A DNA stretch of 64,000 bases from an uncultured Elusimicrobia bacterium (GCA_964604825.1 CAZSAL010000010.1:2141-66140); one strand, 5' to 3'; positions 10,382 through 45,007 are shown, numbered from the stretch's first letter. The notes: generated by a model not told the origin, from the sequence alone. Numbers and translations are program-made.

Positions 10382-10663
10382 TCACTGCTGTTTATCGTAC
10401 TGCTCTTCGATAATCTTCAGAGACCCGGTGACAGAGGCATTTTCGCTAGGCAGACAAATGACGCGATCTTTTCCATACTCGCTGCGTAAAACAGTAAGCA
10501 CTTCATCCAGCCAGGAAGGACCCACGGCAAGAACACCGCTGAAGTCGAGCTCAATTCGGTCGCCCGGCTGCGGTTTGAAATAAGCTTTGATAGCCAGTCC
10601 GGCTTCCCGACCCGAAGGCCTGGACGTCAGGATTTCTCCAAACTTTCTCACTTCAACTTTCAC
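10382..10663 (-). CDS. STAS-like DUF4325 family protein
   Basis: A ~90-aa protein (ELDFSGVLAVGPSWLDEVL) of the type that follows HATPase-type ATP-binding proteins. It overlaps the upstream gene by 4 nt. Confidence 0.55.
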   Translation of the reverse strand: MKVEVRKFGEILTSRPSGREAGLAIKAYFKPQPGDRIELDFSGVLAVGPSWLDEVLTVLRSEYGKDRVICLPSENASVTGSLKIIEEQYDKQQ

Positions 10664-11436
10664 TGCAACCCCCAGACTAAAAGGGTGACGGTGCCTTCAA
10701 CGTTGCCAAAATGCTTATCTAAAACAGTTGCGCACTTCTCCCCTTGTTCACCATAAAATACACGGCCAGTTCCAGAAACACAGGCTAGGCCACAATTCGG
10801 ACTGGTCGAAACAGTTTCTCTGACAAACTTAAGTCCGTTGCCGCGCTGCTCCGGAGCACGGCCAGAAATATTGGTTTCAAATGCGGCTTTCACAGCTGCA
10901 TGTTCATCTGCCAGATCAGGAAGAACCTTGACCAGGGACCGGAATATTCCTTGTCCCCTGTCAGCGATGCAGATCCAGAACCTCCGTCCAGTGATCTGCG
11001 ACTCGAACCAGCAGCCGGGAACGTCCCTCCACTGCCCGATATTATGGTCGAACGAATTATTACCAACTTCGCCAGCCGTCGAAATAACCAGAGGCAAAAG
11101 GTTTTCCTGCAGTCCGTTTCTGACAAAAGATTTCAGATGAGGCAGTCTGGCAGTGAAAATATCACGCGTCTCGCATACCAGTGACTCCGGACTTTTGGGC
11201 GCAGCCTGCTCACTCATCCATCCGGAAGCCGCTCCGAAATCCGGTACCCCGGCTAATGCGTAATGCACCAAAGGAGCTGACCCTTTGGCCTCAATAATTC
11301 CTTGCTCTGTGAGATCCTTTAAATGACGGTGAATAGCCTGAGCAGAAATGTTCAAGGACTTCCGTAAATCAAAAGGCCTGATTTTTCCGCTTTTCTCAAT
11401 TATTTCAAGGATTTGAGCTCGTGTATTTGTTTTCAT
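10660..11436 (-). CDS. winged-HTH transcriptional regulator fused to an anti-sigma-factor-like HATPase domain
   Basis: N-terminal wHTH (LNISAQAIHRHLKDLTEQGIIEAKG). C-terminal Bergerat boxes GEVGNNSFDHN (N-box), ICIADRGQGI (G1) and RGNGLKFV (G2). Confidence 0.6.
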   Translation of the reverse strand: MKTNTRAQILEIIEKSGKIRPFDLRKSLNISAQAIHRHLKDLTEQGIIEAKGSAPLVHYALAGVPDFGAASGWMSEQAAPKSPESLVCETRDIFTARLPHLKSFVRNGLQENLLPLVISTAGEVGNNSFDHNIGQWRDVPGCWFESQITGRRFWICIADRGQGIFRSLVKVLPDLADEHAAVKAAFETNISGRAPEQRGNGLKFVRETVSTSPNCGLACVSGTGRVFYGEQGEKCATVLDKHFGNVEGTVTLLVWGLQ

Positions 11437-34646: not shown

Positions 34647-35558
34647 TCACTTCAATTTTCCTTCTCCAGCTTTTGCCAGGGATGTCCCGAGCAAGGCAAG
34701 AAATCCACCTAATTGTTTGGCCAAAACCGCGGAATCCGCGCCATCCGGTTGCAAAGGACAAAACTCCAGTTTCCAGTTCAATATTGCATCATAGTCCATA
34801 TTCCATTGCCACTTGTCCGACTCGTCCCCCATAACCAACCGGGCCTTGTCCCAGAATGTCTTCAAAGGATCTGTACTGCTTTTTTCAGCGGCCCCTTGTT
34901 TCCCCGATGCGCCGCTGCCACCATTTCCTTTGGCCAGTTTCCTGTCAATTGCAGTTCTTGTCTGTTTGACAGACCACCCACCTTTTATGATTTTATTGGC
35001 CATACCTTTTTGTGAATTCGCATTGTTAATTCGCATCAATTCGATTGAATGCTCACGCGTCAATGTGCGTTGACGCACATTATCCTTAATTGCCTCAGGC
35101 AAAGACAAAAGGGAGATTGATTTGGTCACATAGGTGCGGTCCTGACCCGCAATCTCCGCTATTCTATCATGCGTCCAATAAGCGCCATCAAGCTTGTTCA
35201 GGTTATTAAAACCTTCAGCTTCCTCTATAGGGTCAAGTTCTTCCCGCATCATGTTTTCAAGGAGCCCTTTGGCTGCAGCTTCCGCTTCGCTGACAGTTTT
35301 TATGACTTGCGCATCAAGAGCCTGCAAGCCGGCCAGAGCCGCAGCGCGCCATCGTCGTTCCCCAAAAATAATCTCAAAATAATCGCCTTTATCCCGCACA
35401 AGGATCGGCTCCAGTTGGCCTTCGTCCTGCATGGATTTGGCAAGAGCCTTCAGTCTGGGTTCTTCGAAATGCTTGCGAGCCTGATACGGCGACGGCTTAA
35501 TTTTATCCAGCGGTATCTTAACAATGGCTCTGGCATCAGTTGACGTAGTATCAGCCAT
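34647..35558 (-). CDS. ParB/Srx-superfamily N-terminal-domain protein, an orphan ParB-like
   Basis: IPLDKIKPSPYQARK and the GERRWRAA ParB box, an HTH region, and an atypical C-terminal ~110 aa. There is no parA neighbour. It sits immediately downstream of hsdR. Confidence 0.65.
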   Translation of the reverse strand: MADTTSTDARAIVKIPLDKIKPSPYQARKHFEEPRLKALAKSMQDEGQLEPILVRDKGDYFEIIFGERRWRAAALAGLQALDAQVIKTVSEAEAAAKGLLENMMREELDPIEEAEGFNNLNKLDGAYWTHDRIAEIAGQDRTYVTKSISLLSLPEAIKDNVRQRTLTREHSIELMRINNANSQKGMANKIIKGGWSVKQTRTAIDRKLAKGNGGSGASGKQGAAEKSSTDPLKTFWDKARLVMGDESDKWQWNMDYDAILNWKLEFCPLQPDGADSAVLAKQLGGFLALLGTSLAKAGEGKLK

Positions 35559-35579: not shown

Positions 35580-38500
35580 TTATTCACCGTCTGCCGCCAT
35601 GGGCAAATCTTCAACAGGTCCCGTGGAAATAATGTCTGTATCGACACCTGCACTCACCAAATCTTCCTCCGGCCAGTTGCGGCAGAGGAGTTCCGTCTGC
35701 TTGAGCACGGTTTCGGTGGCTCTTTCCTGTTTGTCCGGCGGATACCCGTGCTCGCGGAGGAGGCGTTTGATGGTGACTCGCATTCTTGCGCGCACGGATT
35801 CTTTGAGTGACCAATCAACAGCAAGATTCTGACGAACAGACTTAACGAGGTCCCTGGCGATAGCGCCAAGAACCTTGTCCCCCAAAATTTTGACGGCGCT
35901 GTCGCTGGTTTCCAGAGCGTCGTAAAAAGCCAGTTCATCTTCGGTTAAACCAAGCTTTTCACCCCTCTTGTGCGCCTCGCGCATCTCCCTGGCAAGCTTG
36001 ATAAGTTCCTCAATGACCTGAGCCGCTTCAATGGCCCGGTTGTGGTAGCGCTGAATGGTTTCCTCAAGCATTTTGGCGAAAGACCGCGACTTCACCAGGA
36101 ACTTTCGTTCCCGAATTTTAATTTCATCTTCCAGAAGTTTCCGCAGCGCTTCCGCCGCCAGATTCTTCTGAGGCATGCGCCGCACTTCATCCAGAAACTT
36201 GTCCGAGAGAATCGATATATCCGGTTTTCCCTGACCGCTCGCCGCAAAAATATCGACCACTTTGTCTGAGTAAACCGCACCGGAAACAATCTGCCGGATG
36301 GCATTATCCAGGTCCGCCGGATCCGCGCCGCCGGCCTCGGTGTTCTTGATCAAAGAGGCCTTGATCGCCTGGAAATAGCTCACCTCATTACGAACAGCCA
36401 GGGCTTTATCATGAGGAACTGACAACGCAAATGCCTGGGACATCTCCGCGACTGCCTGAAGGAAGCGCTTCTTCCCATCCTCAACCTGCTGAAGAATATA
36501 ATCCATGCCGCCGCTCACGGCCGCTACGCGTTCCCCTGCCGTTCCTTTAAAGAACTTCCCATAGTCATATTTCCACCCGCCCGAGCCCTTAGCAGCGGGC
36601 GGGTGCGGCCGGAGAGGTTTCCCAGCCACAGGTTGGGACCCTGTCGGACCGGCGAAAATACCGCGCAGCACTTCAAGTTTCTCCAGGAGTTTCGCAACAG
36701 CTATTTCCTGATCAATACCCGCAGCCTTCCGGTCCCGCTCCGAGTACTCGGCCAGGGCGGCTTTCAGCTCGTGGGCAATGCCCAGATAATCCACGACCAG
36801 CCCGCCCGGTTTATCCTTAAAAACCCGGTTCACCCGTGCAATGGCCTGCATCAAACCATGCCCGCGCATGGGCTTGTCGATATACATCGTATGGAGAGAC
36901 GGCACATCAAACCCGGTCAGCCACATATCCCGCACAATCACCAGCCTGATGGGACACTCCGGCTTTTTGAATTCGTCCCCCAGCCGCTTGCGTCGCTCTT
37001 TATCGCGGATATGTGCCTGCCACTCCGGACCGTCCGCCGCTGATCCAGTCATCACTACCTTCAGAAATCCCTTTTTATCGTCCGGATCATGCCATAGAGG
37101 GCGAAGCTTGACGATTTCGTTATAAAGGTCAACGCAGATACGGCGGCTCATGCAGACGATCAGCCCTTTGCCTTCCATGGCTTCCCGCCGTTTCTCAAAA
37201 TGCTCCACGATATCCTTTGCGATAAGCCTGATTCGCCTCTCCGCTCCAACCAATGCTTCCATGCGCGCCCACTTGGTCTTAAGCTTTCGCTGGACGTTTT
37301 CCTCTTCGCCCTCCGTGACTTCTTCAAACTGAGGATCGATCTTCGGCATTTCTTCGGGTTTGAGGCCGAGCTTGGCCAGGCGGGCTTCGTAATAAATGGG
37401 AACTGTGGCCTTATCTTCGATTGATTGATGGATATCGTAAATATCGATGTAATCACCGAAAACCGCCCGCGTGTTGCGGTCGCCTGCCTCAATCGGCGTA
37501 GCGGTGAACCCGATGAACGAGGCTTGCGGCAGGCAGTCCCGCATATGCTTAGCCAGGCCTTTAATGAAATCGTATTGGGACCGGTGCGCCTCATCCGCGA
37601 TCACAACAATATTGCGCCGATCAGAAAGCAAAGGATTCGTGTCCCGTTCGCTATTCCTTTTCGACGGGACCTGCAGCGATGAACTCATCCGCTGCAGATC
37701 ACCTTTCTGGTCTGGCAGGAACTTCTGAATCGTCGTAAATATGACACCGCCTGAGGCGCGCTTGAGAAGCTCCCGGAGATGTACCCTGCTGGTCGATTGG
37801 ATGGGCGCCTGAGCAAGAAGATCCGAACAAGGCACAAAGGTCCTGTCAAAAAGCTGGTCATCCAGATCGTTGCGATCAGTGAGAAGGACCAGGGTAGGAT
37901 TTTTCATCTCCGGATGCTGGATTATTTTCCCTGCATAAAAAACCATGGTCAGGCTTTTACCCGAGCCCTGAGTGTGCCAGACAACTCCCGCCCGCCTGTC
38001 TCCCTTGACGGCCTTGACCGTAGCTTCAATTGCCTTTTGCACCGCATGGAACTGATGATAGCTGGTCATCTTTTTGATGGTGGTTTTCTCGCCATGCTCG
38101 AAGACCGTGAAATAACGGATCAAATCCAGGAAGCGTTTCTTTTCGAACATACCCTTGATGAGCACTTCAAGCTGCGGCCGGCTTGAAGGGGCCAACTCGC
38201 GCCCGTCCACAGTCCGCCAGGGCATGAAGCGTTCCCAATCCGATGAAACAGTTCCCGCTCTTGCGGCGAGACCGTCGGAGATAATCAGCGGCCCGGCGAA
38301 CTGAAACAAAGAAGGAATTTCCTCCTTGTATGTCTCGAATTGTTTGAAGGCTTCCCGGACGGACGTTTGCTCCTTGGCAGGATTCTTCAATTCAAAGACA
38401 GCGAGCGGCAGGCCGTTCACAAAAATCACAACATCCGGCCTCCGGTTATGCTGATTTTCAATAACCGTGAACTGATTCACAACCAGCCAGTCATTAGCTT

Positions 38501-38921
38501 CAGCATCGTCAAAATCGATCAGCCGCGCATGATCAGATACCGTTCGCCCGTCGCCCTGATAATCTACCGGAACGCTTTCGATCAGATATTTATGAAACTG
38601 TTCGTTATTCTGCAGCAGGCTGGGATGTTCACTTCGCAGGACTTTACGGAAGGCATCGTCTAAAGCATCAGCAGGAATTTTCGGATTCAGCTTCGCCAGC
38701 GCCGATTTCAACCGCCCCGGCAGGACAACTTCTTCGTAGCTAGACCGCTCTGCGGGCCCATCAATCGCAACGGTGAAACCTCTTTGCGATGGTGCCGCTT
38801 CCGCTGCCGCAACAGGGAGCGGCGCAGGGGCAATGTCCGGGCCATGAGCGATAGAGTAGCCTAGGCTTTCCAGCCATTCAAGCGCGGCGTCTTCAGCGGT
38901 GGATTCGGTGATCGGGTTCAC
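35580..38921 (-). CDS. hsdR: type I restriction enzyme R subunit HsdR
   Basis: HSDR_N, the ResIII/DEAD helicase motifs ([12 protein letters not shown]-like [11 protein letters not shown]) and the C-terminal domain. 1113 aa. Confidence 0.9.
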
Positions 38922-38923
38922 AA

Positions 38924-39970
38924 CTATTTCTTTTTCCTCTTCCCGTGGGGTGGCGTAAGTTTTTTGATTTTTTCCACCACTTTATCGAAGTCGGACACCG
39001 GCTGGTTAGCTTCGATCCGCCGCCGGGTCTCCTCGTATTTCCCAAACTCGTCCTCAGCATGAGCGGCCGCGAGCTCATGCGATACCCTGCCAGCATGCGA
39101 CAGAATATTGCGTTCGTTGAACTGGAGAAAACCATCCAGTTTTTTCACCCAGTCCGCCATCTTCATCGGCGTGCGCCTGCGCGCCTGATCCTCGGCGTAA
39201 TCGAGATACATGGCGACCACGCGGTTCAACTCGCGCAGTTCTTCCTCATTCAGGTAGTTCTTGGCTACGGTAACGTCGGACCGGCGGATATGGCCTCTGG
39301 GTGCGTTCTTCCACGTAGTCAGTCCCATATTCGGCTTGCCGGCGTCCGCCCGGCCATAAATAATCTCTGCCGCCGTGTGCCCGTGAATCGCCCAATGCAG
39401 TTTGTTTTGCACTGTGGAGTAGAACGTCTGCGTGATCTCCGCCTGGGCATCATAATCGATGCTGCACTGCGCATAGATGTCGGTGATCTTCTGGTAGAAC
39501 CGCCGCTCCGAAGCCCGGATATCACGGATGCGTTCCAGCAACTCATCAAAATAATCTGCGCCCAGGTTGGCTCCGGACTTGAGGCGTTCGTCATCCATCG
39601 TAAACCCTTTGACAATGTACTCCCGCAGACGCTGTGTCGCCCAGATGCGGAATTGCGTGCCTCGTTGGGACTTCACGCGGTATCCCACAGAGATAATGAC
39701 GTCCAGGTTGTAGAACTGTGTCCGATAATTTTTCCCATCAGGGGCAGTCGTCAAGGAATCCTTGACAACTGAATCTTCAGACAATTCTTTCTCGGAAAAG
39801 ATATTTTTGATATGCAGACTGACATTTTGCTTCGTTGTTTGAAGCAACTCCGCGATCTGATTTTGAGTGAGCCAGACCGTTTCGTTTTCCAAACGTACAT
39901 CCAGCCGGGTCTGCTTATCTTCCGTCTGGTAGATTAGAATTTGAGATTGTTCAGAAGGTTCTTTCTTCAT
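38924..39970 (-). CDS. RhuM family virulence/Fic-associated protein
   Basis: The conserved RhuM core (..[17 protein letters not shown]..). It is inserted between hsdS and hsdR, and its GC is lower than the flanking genes. Confidence 0.8.
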
Positions 39971-40165
39971 TTAAATACTTCCCTCCATCAAATCTTGGCT
40001 ACACGTCCACTCAGGTAAAGATTCCTCATGCGCGATCTCTGGCCCGTGAGCGATGCGGTAGCCAAGACTTCCCATCCATTCAAGAGCGGCGGCGGCGGTG
40101 GATTCGGAGAACTTTGTAATTCTACTCATCTCTTGGGAGAAAGTTTGGGGTTTCTCCAGACCCAA
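39971..40165 (-). pseudogene. duplicated fragment of the hsdR 5' end (HSDR_N N-terminal ~45 aa)
   Basis: ESTAAAALEWMGSLGYRIAHGPEIA aligns with the HsdR N-terminus [26 protein letters not shown]. Nucleotide identity is roughly three quarters by eye. Confidence 0.5.
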
Positions 40166-40902
40166 GGTAGCGGTTTAGGTGTGTATCCGGTTAATCCCAA
40201 CTTGATTTGATTTTCGATAGCTGGACGGAGTAAGTCCAAGTTTTGACGTAGTGCATCAATATCATCCTGGAGCAATTCAAAGTCAAACGATTTCTCGCTT
40301 AAATTTACTTTAAAGGGTGACCGGATCTGAAAATGGATGGAATATTTTCCGGCTTTCCACCAAAAGTGTTTCTTGTATTCCTCTACAAGCTTATGTACTT
40401 GCTCGCTCGCCATTAATTTATCGTGATAGTTGGGTTCCGCCTTCATCAGATATGACTGATGGGCAGTCGCCTCATTCATGGGAGAAGCTACCTCCTGATG
40501 AAATTCAGTATCTTGAAATCGAACAAATTTCTGGGTCAGCATTAGTGTGCTGAGTTTGAGGGCAATTGCATCATCACTCCGCTCGACCACCTGTTTTTTA
40601 CCCATTTCATCGCTGATCTCGCTGAATTTCTCAGACATGCCCATCCAAGTTAAAACGTGTGTGTCATGGTCGGAATGACGGACGGTGACATAAATCTCGT
40701 TCAAAATCACATCTTTGCGTTCGACAGCAAGGCCCAGCCGTATATTAAGAATTGGGCCGAACGTCGTATATCCTAATTCGATCTGCTTGTTCGGAATTAT
40801 CGTCACGATCGGCTTCGCGTATGCTTTATAACCCCATCGGAATATTTGGGGAATCCAGGCAGCAGCTCCAATATATGCAGCAACATCGGCTGGGTTAGTC
40901 AT
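40126..40902 (-). CDS. hypothetical protein (258 aa) embedded in the type I R-M operon
   Basis: No recognisable motif. Low local GC. It sits in the hsdS-hsdR slot, which typically hosts abortive-infection/anticodon-nuclease-type cargo. Confidence 0.5.
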   Translation of the reverse strand: MTNPADVAAYIGAAAWIPQIFRWGYKAYAKPIVTIIPNKQIELGYTTFGPILNIRLGLAVERKDVILNEIYVTVRHSDHDTHVLTWMGMSEKFSEISDEMGKKQVVERSDDAIALKLSTLMLTQKFVRFQDTEFHQEVASPMNEATAHQSYLMKAEPNYHDKLMASEQVHKLVEEYKKHFWWKAGKYSIHFQIRSPFKVNLSEKSFDFELLQDDIDALRQNLDLLRPAIENQIKLGLTGYTPKPLPWVWRNPKLSPKR

Positions 40903-42152
40903 ATTGTTCTCCTCTGGGTTGTATTAACATGGACATGACAAAGCAAATGAATTTTCCCCGACATCAGCTTCGGCAGCAGGGCGTCGCGTATGGCGGCGAG
41001 TTTTTTGGACTGCTCTTCGTTGTTCTCGATCATTTGATCCAAAGGGTATGCGAATTGTTCAAAGGCATCTATTAACTCTTTAGGCGGTGATGCATGTTTA
41101 ATGTTGCAGAAATCATTTTTCCCAATTGATCCGAAGACAGTGCCTTCAGCTTCGAAAGATGCAAAGGATTCGTTCAGAAAATGCATCGAGTAGTAAGTGT
41201 ACGAACGGCTGCCGCTTTTATGCCGAATTGCGGCAACCCCGCGTCCAATGCAACATTCCCTCAGCGTTAAATTTATATCTCCAACTGGAGCGCGAACGCT
41301 GACAAGCGTATCACCTGCCTGCGCTCGTCTAGTAGGTGCAGTGCAATAAACGCGAGATGTTGGGTAGCGGAATCCAAAATCTGTTCGCCCTTGGTAGAAT
41401 TCCATTCCCCCTCCAACCTCATTATATGTATCGCCTGGAGGTGATTGGCCCATAGTGAGGTTAAATTCCTCACCTATCGTGCTAAGCTGCCAACCCTTCG
41501 GAATTTCGCCGAGCGGAGAGTCCTGGAAGGAATCTGGAAAGAGATCGAGGATGTCCTTATTCCACCCCTCACCCACACCCTCTCCCCCTTGGGGGCGAGG
41601 GAATTTATAAGGGCGGCCTTGCATCTTTGCGCGGACGGGATCGAAATCTACAAACCAAGACTTAAAAATCGCCCGCGCCATGGCCTCCAGCGTCGTGTTC
41701 ATCTTCCGATTCAGCTCGATCTTGTCGTCAAGCGTGCTAAGGATGGCAGCAAGTCCTACCTGTTCCTCAACCGGAGGGATTTCGACTGGCAAGCTGTAAA
41801 ACGAATCCCGGCTTGTCGAAGGAATGGCTGAACCACTATCCATTCTATTGATATCGTAAGTGAGCAGCTTGTAATACGCCCACTTCAAATCAAGTTCAAT
41901 TTTTGGCTTGAGATAAAAGGCAGTATCTATCACAAAAAAGGGCTTGGCTGAATAATGGATTCCTCGATACGCCCCTTTGCGACCGACAATGACCCCCGGA
42001 TGCGGGCACAAAGGCTCCGAGTGCATCCCGATTGGCCCATTTGTTCCATAAACCGGATATGGGCCAGTACCGTCCTCGTATCCACGAAGACTTTGGCCAT
42101 ATTCCAAAGTTACTGCATCACCCCAACGCATTTCTCTCCACTCACCCGCCAT
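40899..42152 (-). CDS. hsdS: type I restriction enzyme specificity subunit HsdS
   Basis: Two target-recognition domains, a conserved central region (FKSWFVDFDPV...LFPDSF..LGEIPKGW) and the C-terminal LPK..M motif. The central spacer carries a ~12-aa repeat-encoded insertion (PRPQGGEGVGEGW). Confidence 0.85.
   Translation of the reverse strand: MAGEWREMRWGDAVTLEYGQSLRGYEDGTGPYPVYGTNGPIGMHSEPLCPHPGVIVGRKGAYRGIHYSAKPFFVIDTAFYLKPKIELDLKWAYYKLLTYDINRMDSGSAIPSTSRDSFYSLPVEIPPVEEQVGLAAILSTLDDKIELNRKMNTTLEAMARAIFKSWFVDFDPVRAKMQGRPYKFPRPQGGEGVGEGWNKDILDLFPDSFQDSPLGEIPKGWQLSTIGEEFNLTMGQSPPGDTYNEVGGGMEFYQGRTDFGFRYPTSRVYCTAPTRRAQAGDTLVSVRAPVGDINLTLRECCIGRGVAAIRHKSGSRSYTYYSMHFLNESFASFEAEGTVFGSIGKNDFCNIKHASPPKELIDAFEQFAYPLDQMIENNEEQSKKLAAIRDALLPKLMSGKIHLLCHVHVNTTQRRTI
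41563..41603. repeat. GC-rich palindromic repeat (cccctcaccc / ccctctccccc-ttg-ggggcgaggg) inserted in-frame in the hsdS central region
   Basis: Same motif family. It encodes RPQGGEGVGEGW between the FDPV and LFPD conserved blocks. Confidence 0.55.
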
Positions 42153-42187
42153 ACCCGAGCTCCTTCAAGCGGTTGTAGTGCATTGTC

Positions 42188-43360
42188 TCACGCAGAGCGT
42201 TCCGTTCCTTCGGCTAGAATCTTGATATAAGGATCGTAAATGAAAATGCGGCCGCGAAGCTTCCCGGTAAACTCTCGGGCAATTGCAAATTTTTGTAGAT
42301 ACATCATCGCTTTGTTCACGGCAGGAAAAGAAAGTTTGAGCTCTCTTTCTGCGTCGGCCAGGGAAATAACTCCATGCTTTCTCAATAAGGTATGCACGCG
42401 CAATGCTGTCATGCCAGCCTTGCCAAGTTTTTGGATTTGATGACTATGATCTTCAAACATAGTTAAAAGTCTTTTGACGGTATCAGCCGCCTGGTTGGAA
42501 ACCTCCTCCACCCCTCGTAAATAAAAGGCCATCCACCCTTCCCAATCTCCGTGCGTACGGATTCTTTGCAGAACCTCGTTATACTCTTCCCGATGTTGCT
42601 TGAAGTGGAGACTCAAATAAAGAAGGGGCTGGGACAGCGCACCTTCTGCACAGAGAATAAAGGTGATCAATAAACGGCCCAGGCGGCCATTGCCATCGAG
42701 AAAAGGGTGAATGGTCTCAAACTGAGCATGGGCCAAGCCAGCCTTAACCAGGGTGGCAGTCTGTATTGGATCTCCATGAAGAAACTTTTCCAAGGCCCCC
42801 ATGGCAGGCATCACTTCATGCGGCGGTGGCGGCACATAGCGTGCGGTGCCGGGCCGCGTTCCACCGAACCAGTTTTGGGAACGGCGAAACTCCCCGGGTT
42901 CTTTGTCGCTACCGCGAGTATCCTTGAGCAACAGGGCGTGTATTTCTTTAAGAAGTCGAAGGCTTAGAGGGAATCCCTCTTTCAATCGCGCAAGCCCATG
43001 ACTCATAGCGGCCACATAATTCGAAACCTCCTTTACGTCGGCCAGGGGAACACCAGGAGTTTGCTTATTTTCGTAAAGCAACAAATCAGAAAGAGATGAT
43101 TGCGTCCCCTCAATTTGGGAAGAGAGGATGGCCTCCTTTCGGATGTACATGTAGAGGAATAGGGTGGGATCTGGCAAAAGGGTCGTAATTCCTTCGAGGC
43201 GACCTAATGCACGGTTGGCTCGTTCATGAGCAGCAGTATCCAACGTGACCGGTGGCGTTGGCGGCAACGGCGATGGGATGAACAAAACAAAAGGCTCAGG
43301 TCCTGACTGTTTCTCCCAGCGGCCTGATCTTATGCTTTTTATGGGGTCAAAATCTATCAT
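42188..43360 (-). CDS. Fic family protein (AMPylation/Doc-like)
   Basis: Fic motif HPFLDGNGRLGR and a C-terminal winged HTH. Confidence 0.85.
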   Translation of the reverse strand: MIDFDPIKSIRSGRWEKQSGPEPFVLFIPSPLPPTPPVTLDTAAHERANRALGRLEGITTLLPDPTLFLYMYIRKEAILSSQIEGTQSSLSDLLLYENKQTPGVPLADVKEVSNYVAAMSHGLARLKEGFPLSLRLLKEIHALLLKDTRGSDKEPGEFRRSQNWFGGTRPGTARYVPPPPHEVMPAMGALEKFLHGDPIQTATLVKAGLAHAQFETIHPFLDGNGRLGRLLITFILCAEGALSQPLLYLSLHFKQHREEYNEVLQRIRTHGDWEGWMAFYLRGVEEVSNQAADTVKRLLTMFEDHSHQIQKLGKAGMTALRVHTLLRKHGVISLADAERELKLSFPAVNKAMMYLQKFAIAREFTGKLRGRIFIYDPYIKILAEGTERSA

Positions 43361-43459
43361 ATATTTGCTATTAAATTATACACGCTTATAGTTTAATAAT
43401 CTATAGTGTTATTAAGCTTTAGGTTAATAGATAAAACACATCTACAATACATGCAGTTT

Positions 43460-45007
43460 TTAAACACGTTTCAGATTATCTCGAATAACAGCCTCCAAAC
43501 AGGCACTTTTGGCAAATTGTTCCTCTAGTTGCTTGGTGAGCCGTTTCATCTTTTCTTCAAAGGGTTCGCCGTCATCCTCCACAGCTTCCGCGCCGACATA
43601 GCGGCCGGGTGTAAGCACATGACCGTGAGAGGAAATCTCTTCCAGCCTGGCGCTTTTACAAAAACCGGGGATATCTTCGTACTTGCCAGCTTCTTTCTCT
43701 CCCCGCCAGGCATGGTAGGTTTTCGCAACGCGGGCGATTTCCTCATCCGTGAGTTCACGGTGCGTGCGATCAATCAGGTGGCTGAGCTTGCGGGCGTCAA
43801 TGAAAAGGGTCTGGCCGCGTCTATCACGAAACTTTCCATTCTTCTTGTCCCGAGCGATGAACCACAGACAGGCGGGAATCATTGCTCCATAGAAAAGTTG
43901 ACCTGGCAGGGCAATCATGCAGTCCACCAGATCGGCTTCGATGATTTTCTTGCGAATTTCGCCTTCCCCGCTGGTATTGGAAGACATCGATCCATTAGCC
44001 AATACGAAACCTGTAATGCCTGTCGGGGCCAGATGGTGAATCATGTGCTGGATCCAGGCGTAATTGGCGTTACCCGCAGGCGGCGCTCCATACTTCCAGC
44101 GCACGTCATCCCGCAAACGCTCTCCTCCCCAGTCTTTGAGGTTGAATGGGGGATTGGCAAGGATAAAGTCAGCTTTTAAATCTTTGTGCAGGTCATTGTG
44201 GAAGGTGTCCGCATTTTGAGGCCCGAGGTTGGCTTCGATCCCGCGAATGGCAAGGTTCATTTTGGCCAGACGCCAGGTTGTTGGGTTGGATTCCTGGCCG
44301 AAGATCGCGATATCGTCCCGTCTGCCGCCATGAGCTTTGATAAATTCCTCGCTCTGCACAAACATGCCGCTCGAACCGCAGCAGGGATCATACACACGCC
44401 CTTTATAAGGCTCGATCATTTCGACAAGGAGCTTTACGACGCAGCGCGGTGTATAAAATTCTCCGCCCTTTTTCCCTTCCGCGCTCGCAAATTTGCTCAG
44501 GAAGTATTCGTAGACCCGGCCAAGAATATCTTTTGAACGGCTTTCCTTGTCACCCAGGCCGATGGTGCCAATTAAATCGATAAGCTCGCCTAGCCGGTGT
44601 TTATCTAGATCAGGTCGAGCATAAATTTTCGGAAGAACCCCTTTGAGCGAAGGGTTATCCTTCTCAATGGCGACCATAGCGTCGTCAATCAGTTTGCCAA
44701 TCGTCGGCTTCTTCGCATTATCTTGAAGGCGAGTCCAGCGCGCTTCTTTTGGCACCCAGAACACATTGGCCGCAGTGTATTCATCACGGTCTTCCGGGTC
44801 AGCGCCTTTTTCCTTTGCCAGCTTCGCGCGATGTTCCTCAAAAGCGTCTGAAATGTACTTGAGAAATATGAGCCCCAACGCAACGTGTTTATACTCGCCC
44901 GGGTCCATGTGCCCGCGCATCTTGTCCGCAGCGGACCAGAGCTTTTCCTCAAACCCAAGGTTCGCGCCGTTGCCGTTTTGCTTAACAGATTTCATTTCAC
45001 GCGCCAT
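43460..45007 (-). CDS. hsdM: type I restriction-modification N6-adenine methyltransferase subunit HsdM
   Basis: HsdM N-terminal domain, SAM motif, and the catalytic LANPPFN. Confidence 0.9.

What the first reader, a model, noticed from the sequence alone, without database searches (positions are those of the whole stretch)
40126..40902. Unannotatable 258-aa gene occupying the hsdS-hsdR cargo slot of the type I R-M operon
The gene is AT-richer than its neighbours and has no recognisable domain. It sits where E. coli-type loci carry prrC/rloC-like anticodon nucleases or Abi genes, alongside other typical hitch-hikers (fic, rhuM). It is a candidate novel defence/abortive-infection or anti-restriction-sensing gene.
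Basis: inference. Interest (0 to 1): 0.6.

Follow-up and report, generated by a model that had tools for sequence, protein, structure and literature searches.

The report
Orphan mobile gene inside restriction operon
A real, well-folded but completely uncharacterised 258-residue protein sits inside a type I restriction-modification operon; its roughly 1,000 relatives are lone, horizontally moving genes found mostly in small defence, toxin-antitoxin or prophage islets and only rarely in restriction operons, so it is a reasonable but unproven candidate for a new phage-exclusion gene.

Summary
ORF 40126-40902 (minus strand, 258 aa) is real, AT-richer than its surroundings (44.3% vs 52.4% GC), and has no match in Pfam, NCBIfam, PADLOC or PDB (one PHROG hit at E 0.09). 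It lies in the operon hsdM-fic-hsdS-ORF258-[hsdR 5' relic]-rhuM-hsdR and overlaps its neighbours by ATGA.

It belongs to an unnamed family: 69 word-index hits, and 1,005 clusters (50% identity) in an exhaustive profile search. Members are almost all about 258 aa with no domain fusions, scattered over more than 15 phyla. AlphaFold models are very confident (pLDDT 94-95): a highly conserved N-terminal helix, then an Ig/arrestin-like beta-sandwich with helical inserts. No solved or viral structure matches (no E <= 0.001, all TM-scores < 0.5).

The link to hsd is weak. Only 2 of about 84 loci with usable flanks place the gene between hsdS and hsdR. Those two copies are phylogenetically independent. 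No partner gene is conserved. Other copies lie beside Mrr, Type ISP enzymes, AbiE, Fic, ParE/HicB islets and integrases, or as a moron between portal and terminase in a Myxococcus xanthus prophage. Some sit among housekeeping genes.

Verdict: an autonomous mobile accessory gene riding in a known insertion hotspot. A defence or exclusion role is plausible but untested. A PrrC-like dependence on the restriction enzyme is unlikely.

The parts
40126..40902 (-). ORF258 ('X'): 258-aa member of an unnamed, Pfam-less family. It consists of a conserved N-terminal helix, an Ig/arrestin-like beta-sandwich and helical inserts.
   Evidence: ORF. No family hits. Homologs. Models with pLDDT 94.3 and 95.4. 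Keeps 41/42 conserved positions.
40819..40887 (-). Codons for the N-terminal helix (true residues about 6-28; family motif E/D-[IV]AAYIGAAAWxPQIxxWxY). It is the most conserved segment of the family and a candidate membrane-association or oligomerisation helix.
   Evidence: Conservation 0.78 vs 0.52 overall. Alignment. Hydropathy is sub-threshold for a TM helix (KD 1.22; simple Hessa sum +5.8, window copy +8.7 kcal/mol). Helix 3-27 in the model.
40129..40815 (-). Codons for the globular part (true residues 30-258): beta-sandwich, a three-helix insert, two further strands, a long helix, and a C-terminal WxW tail.
   Evidence: Domain-only model with pLDDT 95.4, pTM 0.87. No PDB match at E <= 0.001 and all TM < 0.5.
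40899..42152 (-). hsdS (417 aa). Its stop codon overlaps the ORF258 start (ATGA). Pfam recognises only the first target-recognition domain.
   Evidence: Pfam Methylase_S at residues 4-156. Junction sequence.
39971..40129 (-). 52-codon relic of an hsdR 5' end. It starts with an ATGA overlap on the ORF258 stop codon.
   Evidence: 73% identity to HsdR residues 5-30, E 8e-10. About 80% nucleotide identity over about 90 nt to the present hsdR start. First flagged (L002).
38924..39970 (-). rhuM (348 aa), a second cargo gene lying between the relic and hsdR.
   Evidence: Pfam Virulence_RhuM, E 6e-118.
35580..38921 (-). hsdR (1113 aa, GTG start 2 nt after the rhuM stop).
   Evidence: Pfam HSDR_N, SWI2_SNF2, ResIII, T1RH-like_C. 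Junction.
42188..43360 (-). fic (390 aa), a cargo gene between hsdM and hsdS.
   Evidence: Pfam Fic_N + Fic. A 39-40% identical Fic lies directly upstream of a family member in L082.
43460..45007 (-). hsdM (515 aa), the first gene of the operon.
   Evidence: Pfam HsdM_N + N6_Mtase.

Best explanation
ORF258 is an autonomous, horizontally mobile single-gene accessory module that has been captured in the hsdS-hsdR insertion hotspot of this type I R-M operon. It is co-transcribed and translationally coupled with the operon, but it does not depend on the restriction enzyme. I think it is most likely a stand-alone phage-exclusion or abortive-infection factor. In this model the Ig/arrestin-like beta-sandwich is a binding or sensing domain with no catalytic signature. 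The exceptionally conserved small-residue/aromatic N-terminal helix mediates the output, either by self-association or by association with the inner membrane.

Shown: a real gene and a real family; no partner gene; patchy distribution across phyla; frequent defence, TA, prophage or integrase neighbourhoods; two independent captures in the same hsd slot; a confident novel fold.

Inferred: the defence role, the sensor/effector division of labour, and any action at the membrane or as an oligomer.
For: (1) Autonomy. Uniform single-domain length across 1,005 clusters with no fusions. No recurrent neighbour among 278 neighbour proteins from 54 loci (at most 3 members per Pfam family). No conserved large or small partner ORF; the one apparent cluster was a generic-domain artefact.
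(2) Mobility. 52 species-level genomes in more than 15 phyla. Low GC relative to the host. A moron on the opposite strand between portal and terminase in a M. xanthus prophage that IMG/VR also lists as viral. An integrase-borne island reading Fic-X-AbiEi-AbiEii. Integrases or IS110 within 1-4 kb in L040, L051, L133, L050.
(3) Defence-type neighbourhoods. NERD-NYN-Mrr-X-Panacea. MNT/HepT, Mrr and Type ISP. Type ISP + Cas1. AbiEii beside a Mu-like prophage. A ParE/HicB islet with a PIN gene inside the ccm operon. A Type IIG-like enzyme plus DUF6602. Of 11 loci chosen only for contig length, 6 are clearly of this kind, 2 weakly, and 3 not.
(4) The same hsdS-X-hsdR slot is used twice by distant family members: the smallest clade holding both has 94 of 108 leaves. 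The hsdR relic shows that the window copy was once ATGA-coupled to an hsdR start.
(5) Literature precedent that genes embedded at this site are independent defence systems.
(6) The N-helix is the most conserved region.
Against: There is no functional data of any kind. No catalytic or known effector motif was found, and no structural relative. The N-terminal helix fails simple tests for a transmembrane segment (KD 1.22; simple Hessa sum +5.8 on average and +8.7 kcal/mol in the window copy; invariant Pro and Gln mid-helix) and is not amphipathic, so membrane action is speculative. Three of 11 length-chosen contexts, and many of the bulk-annotated neighbours, are housekeeping genes. The family is absent from 72,556 plasmid and 50,697 phage records. 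It is not among PADLOC's defence or candidate models. I did not compute neighbourhood enrichment against a matched control set, and the context sample is small.
Confidence: 0.4

Rival explanations
1. PrrC-like guard. X is functionally tied to the type I enzyme. It is held inactive by HsdR/HsdM/HsdS and is released as a suicide or exclusion effector when a phage anti-restriction protein disables the enzyme.
For: Tight translational coupling on both sides: ATGA overlaps with hsdS and with the hsdR relic, and an 8-nt overlap with hsdR in L035. The same slot was captured independently twice. PrrC is almost exclusively embedded in type I R-M systems.
Against: Only 2 of about 84 loci with usable flanks are hsd-embedded, so most relatives must work without any type I enzyme. 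X has no ATPase or nuclease domain and no PrrC/RloC hit in PADLOC or Pfam. In the window, rhuM now separates it from hsdR.
Confidence: 0.1
2. A phage-derived moron that serves the mobile element rather than the host. Possibilities are a superinfection-exclusion factor, a counter-defence factor, or an addiction-type toxin that stabilises the DNA segment carrying it, including this hsd operon.
For: Opposite-strand insertion between portal and terminase in a M. xanthus prophage whose contig is seen in 20 or more sequencing runs and which IMG/VR lists as viral. Proximity to a Mu-like prophage. Residence in TA-rich islets. Integrase-borne islands.
Against: No hit in 50,697 phage records. Only one distinct prophage context was found. 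A lone toxin would need an antitoxin, and no conserved partner exists. Counter-defence genes are not expected inside host R-M operons.
Confidence: 0.2
3. A non-defence accessory protein, for example an envelope or stress-related scaffold, whose position in the hsd operon is a neutral accident of recombination at a hotspot.
For: Many neighbours are ordinary metabolic or housekeeping genes. Contexts L142, L143 and L148 contain no defence or mobile genes. A beta-sandwich without catalytic motifs is compatible with many roles.
Against: The extremely patchy distribution across phyla, the repeated residence beside restriction, Abi and TA genes and in prophages, and the two independent captures in the same hsd slot are not expected for a physiological housekeeping accessory.
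Confidence: 0.25
4. A decaying, non-functional passenger in this particular operon: the family is real but this copy is inactive.
For: The near-invariant Gly (98% of the family) is replaced by His at true residue 79, and an Arg sits inside the N-helix, giving the worst hydropathy value in the family. The operon shows signs of rearrangement, namely the hsdR relic.
Against: The reading frame is full-length and intact. 41 of 42 conserved positions are kept. The Shine-Dalgarno sequence and start-stop coupling are retained. An identical copy was recovered from independent datasets.
Confidence: 0.05

Closest known systems
Independent defence modules embedded between hsdS and hsdR of type I R-M operons (DarTG2 in EPEC; TgvAB in V. 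cholerae VPI-2; PrrC; 'guilt-by-embedding' candidates)
   Same: Same genetic position and operon integration, and other hitch-hikers (fic, rhuM) sit alongside. The site is described as a probable recombination hotspot (PMC12255303, PMC11411939, 10.1101/2024.01.29.577857).
   Different: There is no sequence, domain or fold relationship to any of them. X is a single 258-aa protein without a nuclease, ATPase, ADP-ribosyltransferase or DUF262/DUF1524 domain. Unlike PrrC, its family is rarely hsd-embedded.
Prophage morons encoding superinfection-exclusion or abortive-infection proteins (for example membrane-anchored Sie-type proteins; this comparison rests on my own knowledge)
   Same: One family member is an opposite-strand insert between portal and terminase of a prophage. 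X is small, stand-alone and sporadically distributed, and it has an N-terminal hydrophobic helix.
   Different: No homology to any PHROG with a known function. The helix is not a convincing TM segment. Most copies are not in recognisable prophages.
CBASS Cap15-type effectors (N-terminal TM helices plus a small beta-barrel ligand sensor; this comparison rests on my own knowledge)
   Same: The general logic of an N-terminal hydrophobic helix followed by an all-beta binding domain in a protein of about 200-260 aa.
   Different: No PADLOC hit. No CD-NTase or any other conserved partner. One weak helix rather than two TM helices. An Ig/arrestin-like sandwich rather than a minimal barrel.
Ig-like and arrestin-like beta-sandwich domains (Spo0M, ARRDC3 N-lobe, RhoGDI, KirBac cytoplasmic domain, integrin thigh/calf, CLIPPER) and archaellins
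   Same: These are the best Foldseek neighbours. The full-length model resembles archaellins in having a protruding N-terminal helix plus a beta domain (TMq 0.40 / TMt 0.49).
   Different: No match reaches E <= 0.001 or a TM-score of 0.5, and sequence identity is 6-12%. There is no class III signal peptide or prepilin cleavage motif. The helical inserts have no counterpart.

Membership tests
Type I restriction-modification operon (the host locus) | HsdM (N6_Mtase + HsdM_N), HsdS (Methylase_S) and HsdR (HSDR_N + SF2 helicase + C-terminal domain) encoded together | tested here: met
   Pfam hits with E values from 1e-16 to 1e-121 for the three genes, all on one strand.
PrrC / RloC anticodon nucleases | N-terminal ABC-type ATPase domain plus a C-terminal anticodon-nuclease domain | tested here: not met
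   No Pfam, NCBIfam or PADLOC hit at E <= 10. The model is a helix plus a beta-sandwich, with no P-loop fold.
PrrC / RloC anticodon nucleases | Family members found almost exclusively embedded in type I R-M loci | tested here: not met
   2 of about 84 loci with at least 1.5 kb of flank are hsd-embedded.
Known Abi / TA toxin families (AbiEii, Abi_2, HEPN, PIN, Fic and others) | Recognisable toxin or enzymatic domain by profile search | tested here: not met
   Zero Pfam and PADLOC hits for X. No consistent weak Pfam hit across 49 members.
PADLOC defence systems and phage-defence candidates (PDC, HEC) | Match to a PADLOC-DB v2.0.0 model | tested here: not met
   0 families at E <= 10. That library includes PDC-S/PDC-M models (seen), and the candidates are described as searchable with PADLOC.
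CBASS Cap15-like TM effectors | Encoded next to a CD-NTase, with two N-terminal TM helices and a beta-barrel nucleotide sensor | tested here: not met
   No conserved neighbour of any kind. One sub-threshold helix. No PADLOC hit.
Type IV pilin / archaellin-like proteins | Class III signal peptide (short basic leader, Gly at -1, hydrophobic helix) and a filament-forming helix plus beta domain | tested here: not met
   The N-terminus is an acidic leader of 4-8 residues with no G|F-type site. Foldseek TM-scores are 0.40/0.49 at E about 1e-2.
Prophage superinfection-exclusion morons | Encoded as an independently oriented insert in a prophage | tested here: inconclusive
   True for the M. xanthus copy and near a Mu-like prophage, but not for the window copy or for most other loci.
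Prophage superinfection-exclusion morons | Membrane anchoring and a block of incoming phage DNA | not testable with these tools
   Hydropathy is ambiguous. Fractionation and infection assays are needed.

The most novel reading that the evidence does not exclude
X founds a new single-protein anti-phage (abortive-infection or exclusion) family with a previously unseen fold. Its ultra-conserved Ala/Gly/Trp N-terminal helix drives oligomerisation, possibly at the membrane, once the beta-sandwich senses a phage cue. It has repeatedly been recruited next to restriction systems (type I, Type ISP, Mrr) as a second line of defence.
Probability: 0.3. Interest if true: 0.65.

Novelty: new variant of a known kind. 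Interest (0 to 1): 0.45.

Why it matters
Cargo genes in the hsdS-hsdR slot have repeatedly turned out to be new immune systems (PrrC, DarTG2, TgvAB). This one represents a family of about 1,000 sequence clusters with a confident but unmatched fold, no Pfam entry and no PADLOC model, so systematic 'guilt-by-embedding' screens have probably missed it. If it is a defence gene, it adds a domain-less, single-protein mechanism and a new fold to the bacterial immune repertoire. It would also give a compact 0.8-kb test object. If it is not, it is still a clean example showing that position inside an R-M operon is weak evidence on its own, because about 97% of this gene's relatives live elsewhere.

Tried and rejected
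- Profile searches of X against Pfam, NCBIfam, PADLOC, PHROGs and PDB sequences, with both the single sequence and the family profile, found nothing usable.
- Foldseek of the full-length and the domain-only models against PDB, and of the full-length model against BFVD, gave no hit at E <= 0.001.
- tblastn against annotated plasmids and phages gave no match, and megablast of the 6-kb region against plasmids gave no match.
- I searched for a conserved partner by all-vs-all clustering of neighbours, by small-ORF clustering and by bulk Pfam and PADLOC scans. None was found. The only 4-locus cluster was a single-linkage artefact of histidine-kinase and ammonium-transporter domains.
- The idea that the two hsd-embedded copies are co-inherited was rejected by the family tree.
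- The idea that the other 258-aa ORF at 10660-11436 is a paralog was rejected.
- No own promoter or terminator was found for ORF258; such sites are at chance level. No flanking tRNA gene was found.
- The assumption that the N-terminal helix is a transmembrane anchor was downgraded after hydropathy and ΔG estimates.
- The source organism could not be named: the cluster look-up gave only 'hypothetical protein', and the contigs are metagenomic.

Full report
**1. Observation**

Pfam annotation of the neighbours confirms a single-strand type I R-M operon with cargo genes: hsdM (43460-45007), fic (42188-43360), hsdS (40899-42152), ORF258, rhuM (38924-39970) and hsdR (35580-38921). ORF258 is 44.3% GC (GC3 47.1%) in a window of 52.4% GC. 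That is the 2.6th percentile of 777-nt windows. hsdR, rhuM and hsdM have GC3 of 0.61, 0.65 and 0.57, whereas hsdS and fic are intermediate at 0.49-0.50. The operon is therefore compositionally mosaic.

The gene has no hit in Pfam, PADLOC-DB v2 or NCBIfam even at E <= 10. It has one PHROG hit at E 0.09, and PDB sequences give nothing better than E 0.79 with the single sequence or E 0.24 with the family profile. Scanning all 49 aligned members against Pfam gives no consistent weak family.

**2. Fine anatomy of the locus**

The hsdS stop overlaps the ORF258 start (ATGA), with a GGAG motif 8 nt upstream. The ORF258 stop in turn overlaps the ATG of a 52-codon ORF (39971-40129). Its product, MSRITKFSESTAAAALEWMGSLGYRIAHGPEI..., is 73% identical to residues 5-30 of the present HsdR (E 8e-10), and the DNA is about 80% identical over about 90 nt to the present hsdR 5' end. 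This ORF is a diverged relic of an hsdR start, not a fresh duplication.

ORF258 was therefore once immediately upstream of an hsdR gene and translationally coupled to it. rhuM, possibly together with the current hsdR, arrived later by recombination. The relic's stop abuts the rhuM ATG, and the rhuM stop lies 2 nt before the hsdR GTG. Promoter-like and terminator-like sites in the region are at chance level, and no tRNA gene flanks the operon. ORF258 thus looks like an integral, read-through cistron.

**3. The protein and its family**

The word-indexed search found 69 relatives, nearly all 255-265 aa and all unnamed. The exhaustive profile search found 1,005 clusters (50% identity) at E <= 1e-3 and 275 at E <= 1e-30. 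These again match as single full-length stretches of about 258 aa, with no domain fusions. Scans of genome, viral and metagenome collections returned 52, 1 and 206 loci (the best 80 kept). The genome loci span Elusimicrobiota, Armatimonadota, Acidobacteriota, Planctomycetota, Verrucomicrobiota, Bacteroidota, Actinomycetota, Clostridia, Nitrospirota, Omnitrophota, many Pseudomonadota and others. This very patchy distribution indicates horizontal transfer.

Numbering note: alignment A1 and the full-length model lack Met1, so their numbering is the true residue number minus 1. The residue numbers in this section use that alignment/model numbering.

Invariant positions are G11, A12, W15, P17, G43, N52, F128, W181, G184 and N220. 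Near-invariant positions include H75, E90, R127, Y186 and W246/W248. The window copy keeps 41 of 42 positions that are at least 85% conserved. The exception is His in place of a 98%-conserved Gly at true residue 79.

AlphaFold2 with this alignment gives pLDDT 94.3 and pTM 0.84 for the full-length protein, and pLDDT 95.4 and pTM 0.87 for residues 30-258. The model contains:
- helix 3-27;
- a beta-sandwich of about eight strands (31-129);
- three helices (131-177);
- two more strands (184-209);
- a long helix (211-232);
- an extended tail carrying the WxW motif.

**4. The N-terminal helix**

The helix is the most conserved part of the family, with a mean top-residue frequency of 0.78 against 0.52 overall. 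Its motif is E/D-[IV]AAYIGAAAWxPQIxxWxY. Flanking charges are consistently about -1 on the N-side and +2 on the C-side, which would fit an N-out/C-in anchor.

It is nevertheless a poor transmembrane candidate:
- the Kyte-Doolittle mean is 1.22, and 0.77 in the window copy;
- a simple sum on the Hessa scale averages +5.8 kcal/mol, and +8.7 for the window copy;
- invariant Pro and Gln sit in the middle of the helix;
- the hydrophobic moment is low (0.16), so it is not an amphipathic surface helix either.

The small-residue face (Ala/Gly at i, i+4) suggests a specific helix-helix packing interface. Whether that interface lies in a membrane, in a homo-oligomer or with a partner protein remains unresolved.

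**5. Genomic context of relatives**

*hsd linkage.* tblastn with the window's and L035's Hsd proteins against about 134 independent loci found a type I operon only at the window's own locus and in L035, an Omnitrophota MAG. 84 loci have at least 1.5 kb upstream and 81 have at least 1.5 kb downstream. L035 reads hsdM - DUF6036-like nucleotidyltransferase - 350-aa unknown - hsdS - X - hsdR - YgjP-like peptidase, and X overlaps hsdR by 8 nt. The two embedded copies are only 34% identical and are not close in the family tree. L035 ranks 87th of 107 for the window copy, and the smallest clade containing both has 94 of 108 leaves. Each copy's nearest relatives (L007 at 58%; L117 and L032 at 50-55%) are not hsd-linked. 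The slot was therefore occupied independently at least twice.

*No partner.* All-vs-all clustering of 659 neighbouring ORFs found no family shared by more than 4 loci, and that cluster was a histidine-kinase/ammonium-transporter artefact. Small ORFs are conserved only between near-identical contigs. Bulk Pfam scans of 278 neighbours from 54 loci hit 288 families, none in more than 3 proteins, and many are housekeeping (tRNA synthetases, RNR, Pol III alpha, GcpE, acetate kinase). Bulk PADLOC scans show scattered single instances of Dpd, ZorD-like, BrxH, reverse transcriptase, Type I S and Type IIG models.

*Annotated contexts.*

| Locus | Context |
|---|---|
| L145 | NERD - NYN - Mrr - X - small ORF - Panacea-domain protein |
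| L005 | MNT/HepT ... X ... Mrr, Type ISP enzyme |
| L149 | X convergent with a Type ISP enzyme, next to Cas1 |
| L082 | integrase - AAA_25 - Fic (39-40% identical to the window's Fic) - X - AbiEi - AbiEii |
| L003 | Mu-like prophage genes, AbiEii, IS110 |
| L140 (= viral contig L059, 100% identical) | M. xanthus prophage: X on the opposite strand between portal and large terminase; contig seen in 20 or more runs |
| L147 | duplicated ParE/HicB modules - X - PIN-like gene, inserted inside the ccm operon |
| L052 | helicase/EcoEI_R_C fragment - Type IIG-like MTase-S fusion - unknown - DUF6602 - X |
| L146 | DUF6119 and an unknown gene upstream; PIN/RHH 5-6 kb away |
| L144 | hypothetical genes plus a Y1 transposase |
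| L142, L143, L148 | lone gene among housekeeping genes |

A local panel screen added integrases or IS110 within 1-4 kb of X in L040, L051, L133 and L050. Among the 11 loci picked purely for contig length, 6 are clearly defence, TA or prophage contexts, 2 are weakly so and 3 are not. Three of the 11 have a restriction enzyme within 5 kb. My rough expectation, from general knowledge rather than a computation, is that a random gene has a restriction system that close only a few percent of the time. This points to enrichment, but the sample is small and no matched control was run. No copy occurs on the 72,556 plasmid or 50,697 phage records.

**6. Interpretation**

The data support, with high confidence, that ORF258 is a real, intact, autonomous and horizontally mobile single-gene module that is not specifically tied to type I R-M. 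They support, with moderate confidence, that it belongs to the 'variable islet' gene pool of defence, TA and prophage functions. On that basis the most likely role is a stand-alone phage-exclusion or abortive-infection protein. In this model the non-catalytic beta-sandwich senses or binds something, and the ultra-conserved helix provides the output by self-association or membrane association. I give this explanation 0.4 overall.

The rivals are:
- a PrrC-like guard function, disfavoured by distribution and architecture (0.1);
- a phage- or MGE-serving moron or addiction role (0.2);
- a non-defence accessory role with an accidental location (0.25);
- an inactive copy (0.05).

**7. Comparison with what is known**

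The phenomenon, an independent module embedded between hsdS and hsdR, is established. DarTG2 in EPEC lies at exactly this junction, and the site has been proposed as a recombination hotspot (PMC12255303). TgvAB lies within the V. cholerae VPI-2 type I operon (PMC11411939). Payne et al. formalised 'guilt-by-embedding' for Hma, BREX, DISARM and type I R-M systems, with PrrC as the archetype, and state that their candidates are searchable with PADLOC (10.1101/2024.01.29.577857). X matches none of the PADLOC-DB v2 models, which include PDC-S/PDC-M candidates. X works 'like' these modules only in its genetic position. It fails every tested membership criterion for PrrC/RloC, known Abi and TA toxins, Cap15-type effectors and pilin/archaellin-like proteins (see the membership table).

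**8. Novelty and score**

The kind of thing is known: cargo in the hsd slot and a candidate single-gene defence. The protein family, its fold and its conserved helix are uncharacterised, so I rate it 'new variant of a known kind'. A specialist would not be surprised to see an unknown ORF in an hsd operon. The points of interest are the size and coherence of the family, the confident fold with no match, the prophage-moron copy and the two independent captures in the same slot. Together they make a cheap, well-defined experimental target. Interest 0.45. The most novel reading not excluded is a new single-protein immune family with a new fold, with probability about 0.3 and interest 0.65 if true.

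Noticed in passing
window 39971-40129 (-): A 52-codon ORF that starts with an ATGA overlap on the ORF258 stop is a diverged relic of an hsdR 5' end (73% aa identity to HsdR residues 5-30; about 80% nt identity over about 90 nt). It records a past recombination that inserted rhuM, and perhaps replaced hsdR, downstream of ORF258.
   Followed up: yes
window 35580-45007: The operon is compositionally mosaic. GC3 is 0.61 for hsdR, 0.65 for rhuM and 0.57 for hsdM, against 0.47 for ORF258, 0.49 for hsdS and 0.50 for fic. This suggests that the segments have different origins.
   Followed up: partly
window 40899-42152 (-): In the 417-aa HsdS, Pfam recognises only the first target-recognition domain (residues 4-156). 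The 3' half of the gene is also lower in GC (0.477 vs 0.509), so the second TRD is divergent or was recently exchanged.
   Followed up: no
L082 4940-8893: An integrase-borne island carries Fic - X - AbiEi - AbiEii. Its Fic is 39-40% identical to the window's Fic, so Fic and X are neighbours in two unrelated loci.
   Followed up: partly
L140 8493-12311 (Myxococcus xanthus CP017171.1) = L059 (IMG/VR UViG): A family member sits on the opposite strand between the portal and large-terminase genes of a prophage, a classic moron position. The same contig is seen in 20 or more sequencing runs. This copy is in a culturable model organism and could be tested directly.
   Followed up: partly
L147 5636-9441: Two tandem ParE - small ORF - HicB-like modules, followed by X, a PIN-like 155-aa gene and a 68-aa ORF, form an islet inserted between ccmE and ccmF of a cytochrome c maturation operon.
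   Followed up: no
L035 4484-13321: The second hsd-embedded locus also carries other cargo: a DUF6036-like nucleotidyltransferase and a 350-aa domain-less protein between hsdM and hsdS, and a YgjP-like metallopeptidase after hsdR.
   Followed up: partly
L149 1757-6682 and L005 8468-11653: Type ISP restriction enzymes (39% identical to each other) lie near X in two loci. In L149 an unusually long 513-aa Cas1 homolog is adjacent.
   Followed up: no
window 40666-40668 (codon 79 of ORF258): The window copy has His where 98% of the family has Gly, and it has an Arg inside the conserved N-terminal helix. All other conserved positions are kept.
   Followed up: partly
window 10660-11436 (-): A second ORF of exactly 258 aa is unrelated to ORF258 (best BLASTP E 6). 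The shared length is a coincidence.
   Followed up: yes
window 34647-35558 (-): A ParB-like gene (ParB_N + HTH_ParB) lies immediately downstream of hsdR. The operon is otherwise flanked by ordinary genes (LysM protein, holin-like protein, RNase H, YajQ, SHMT) with no integrase or tRNA gene at its borders.
   Followed up: no
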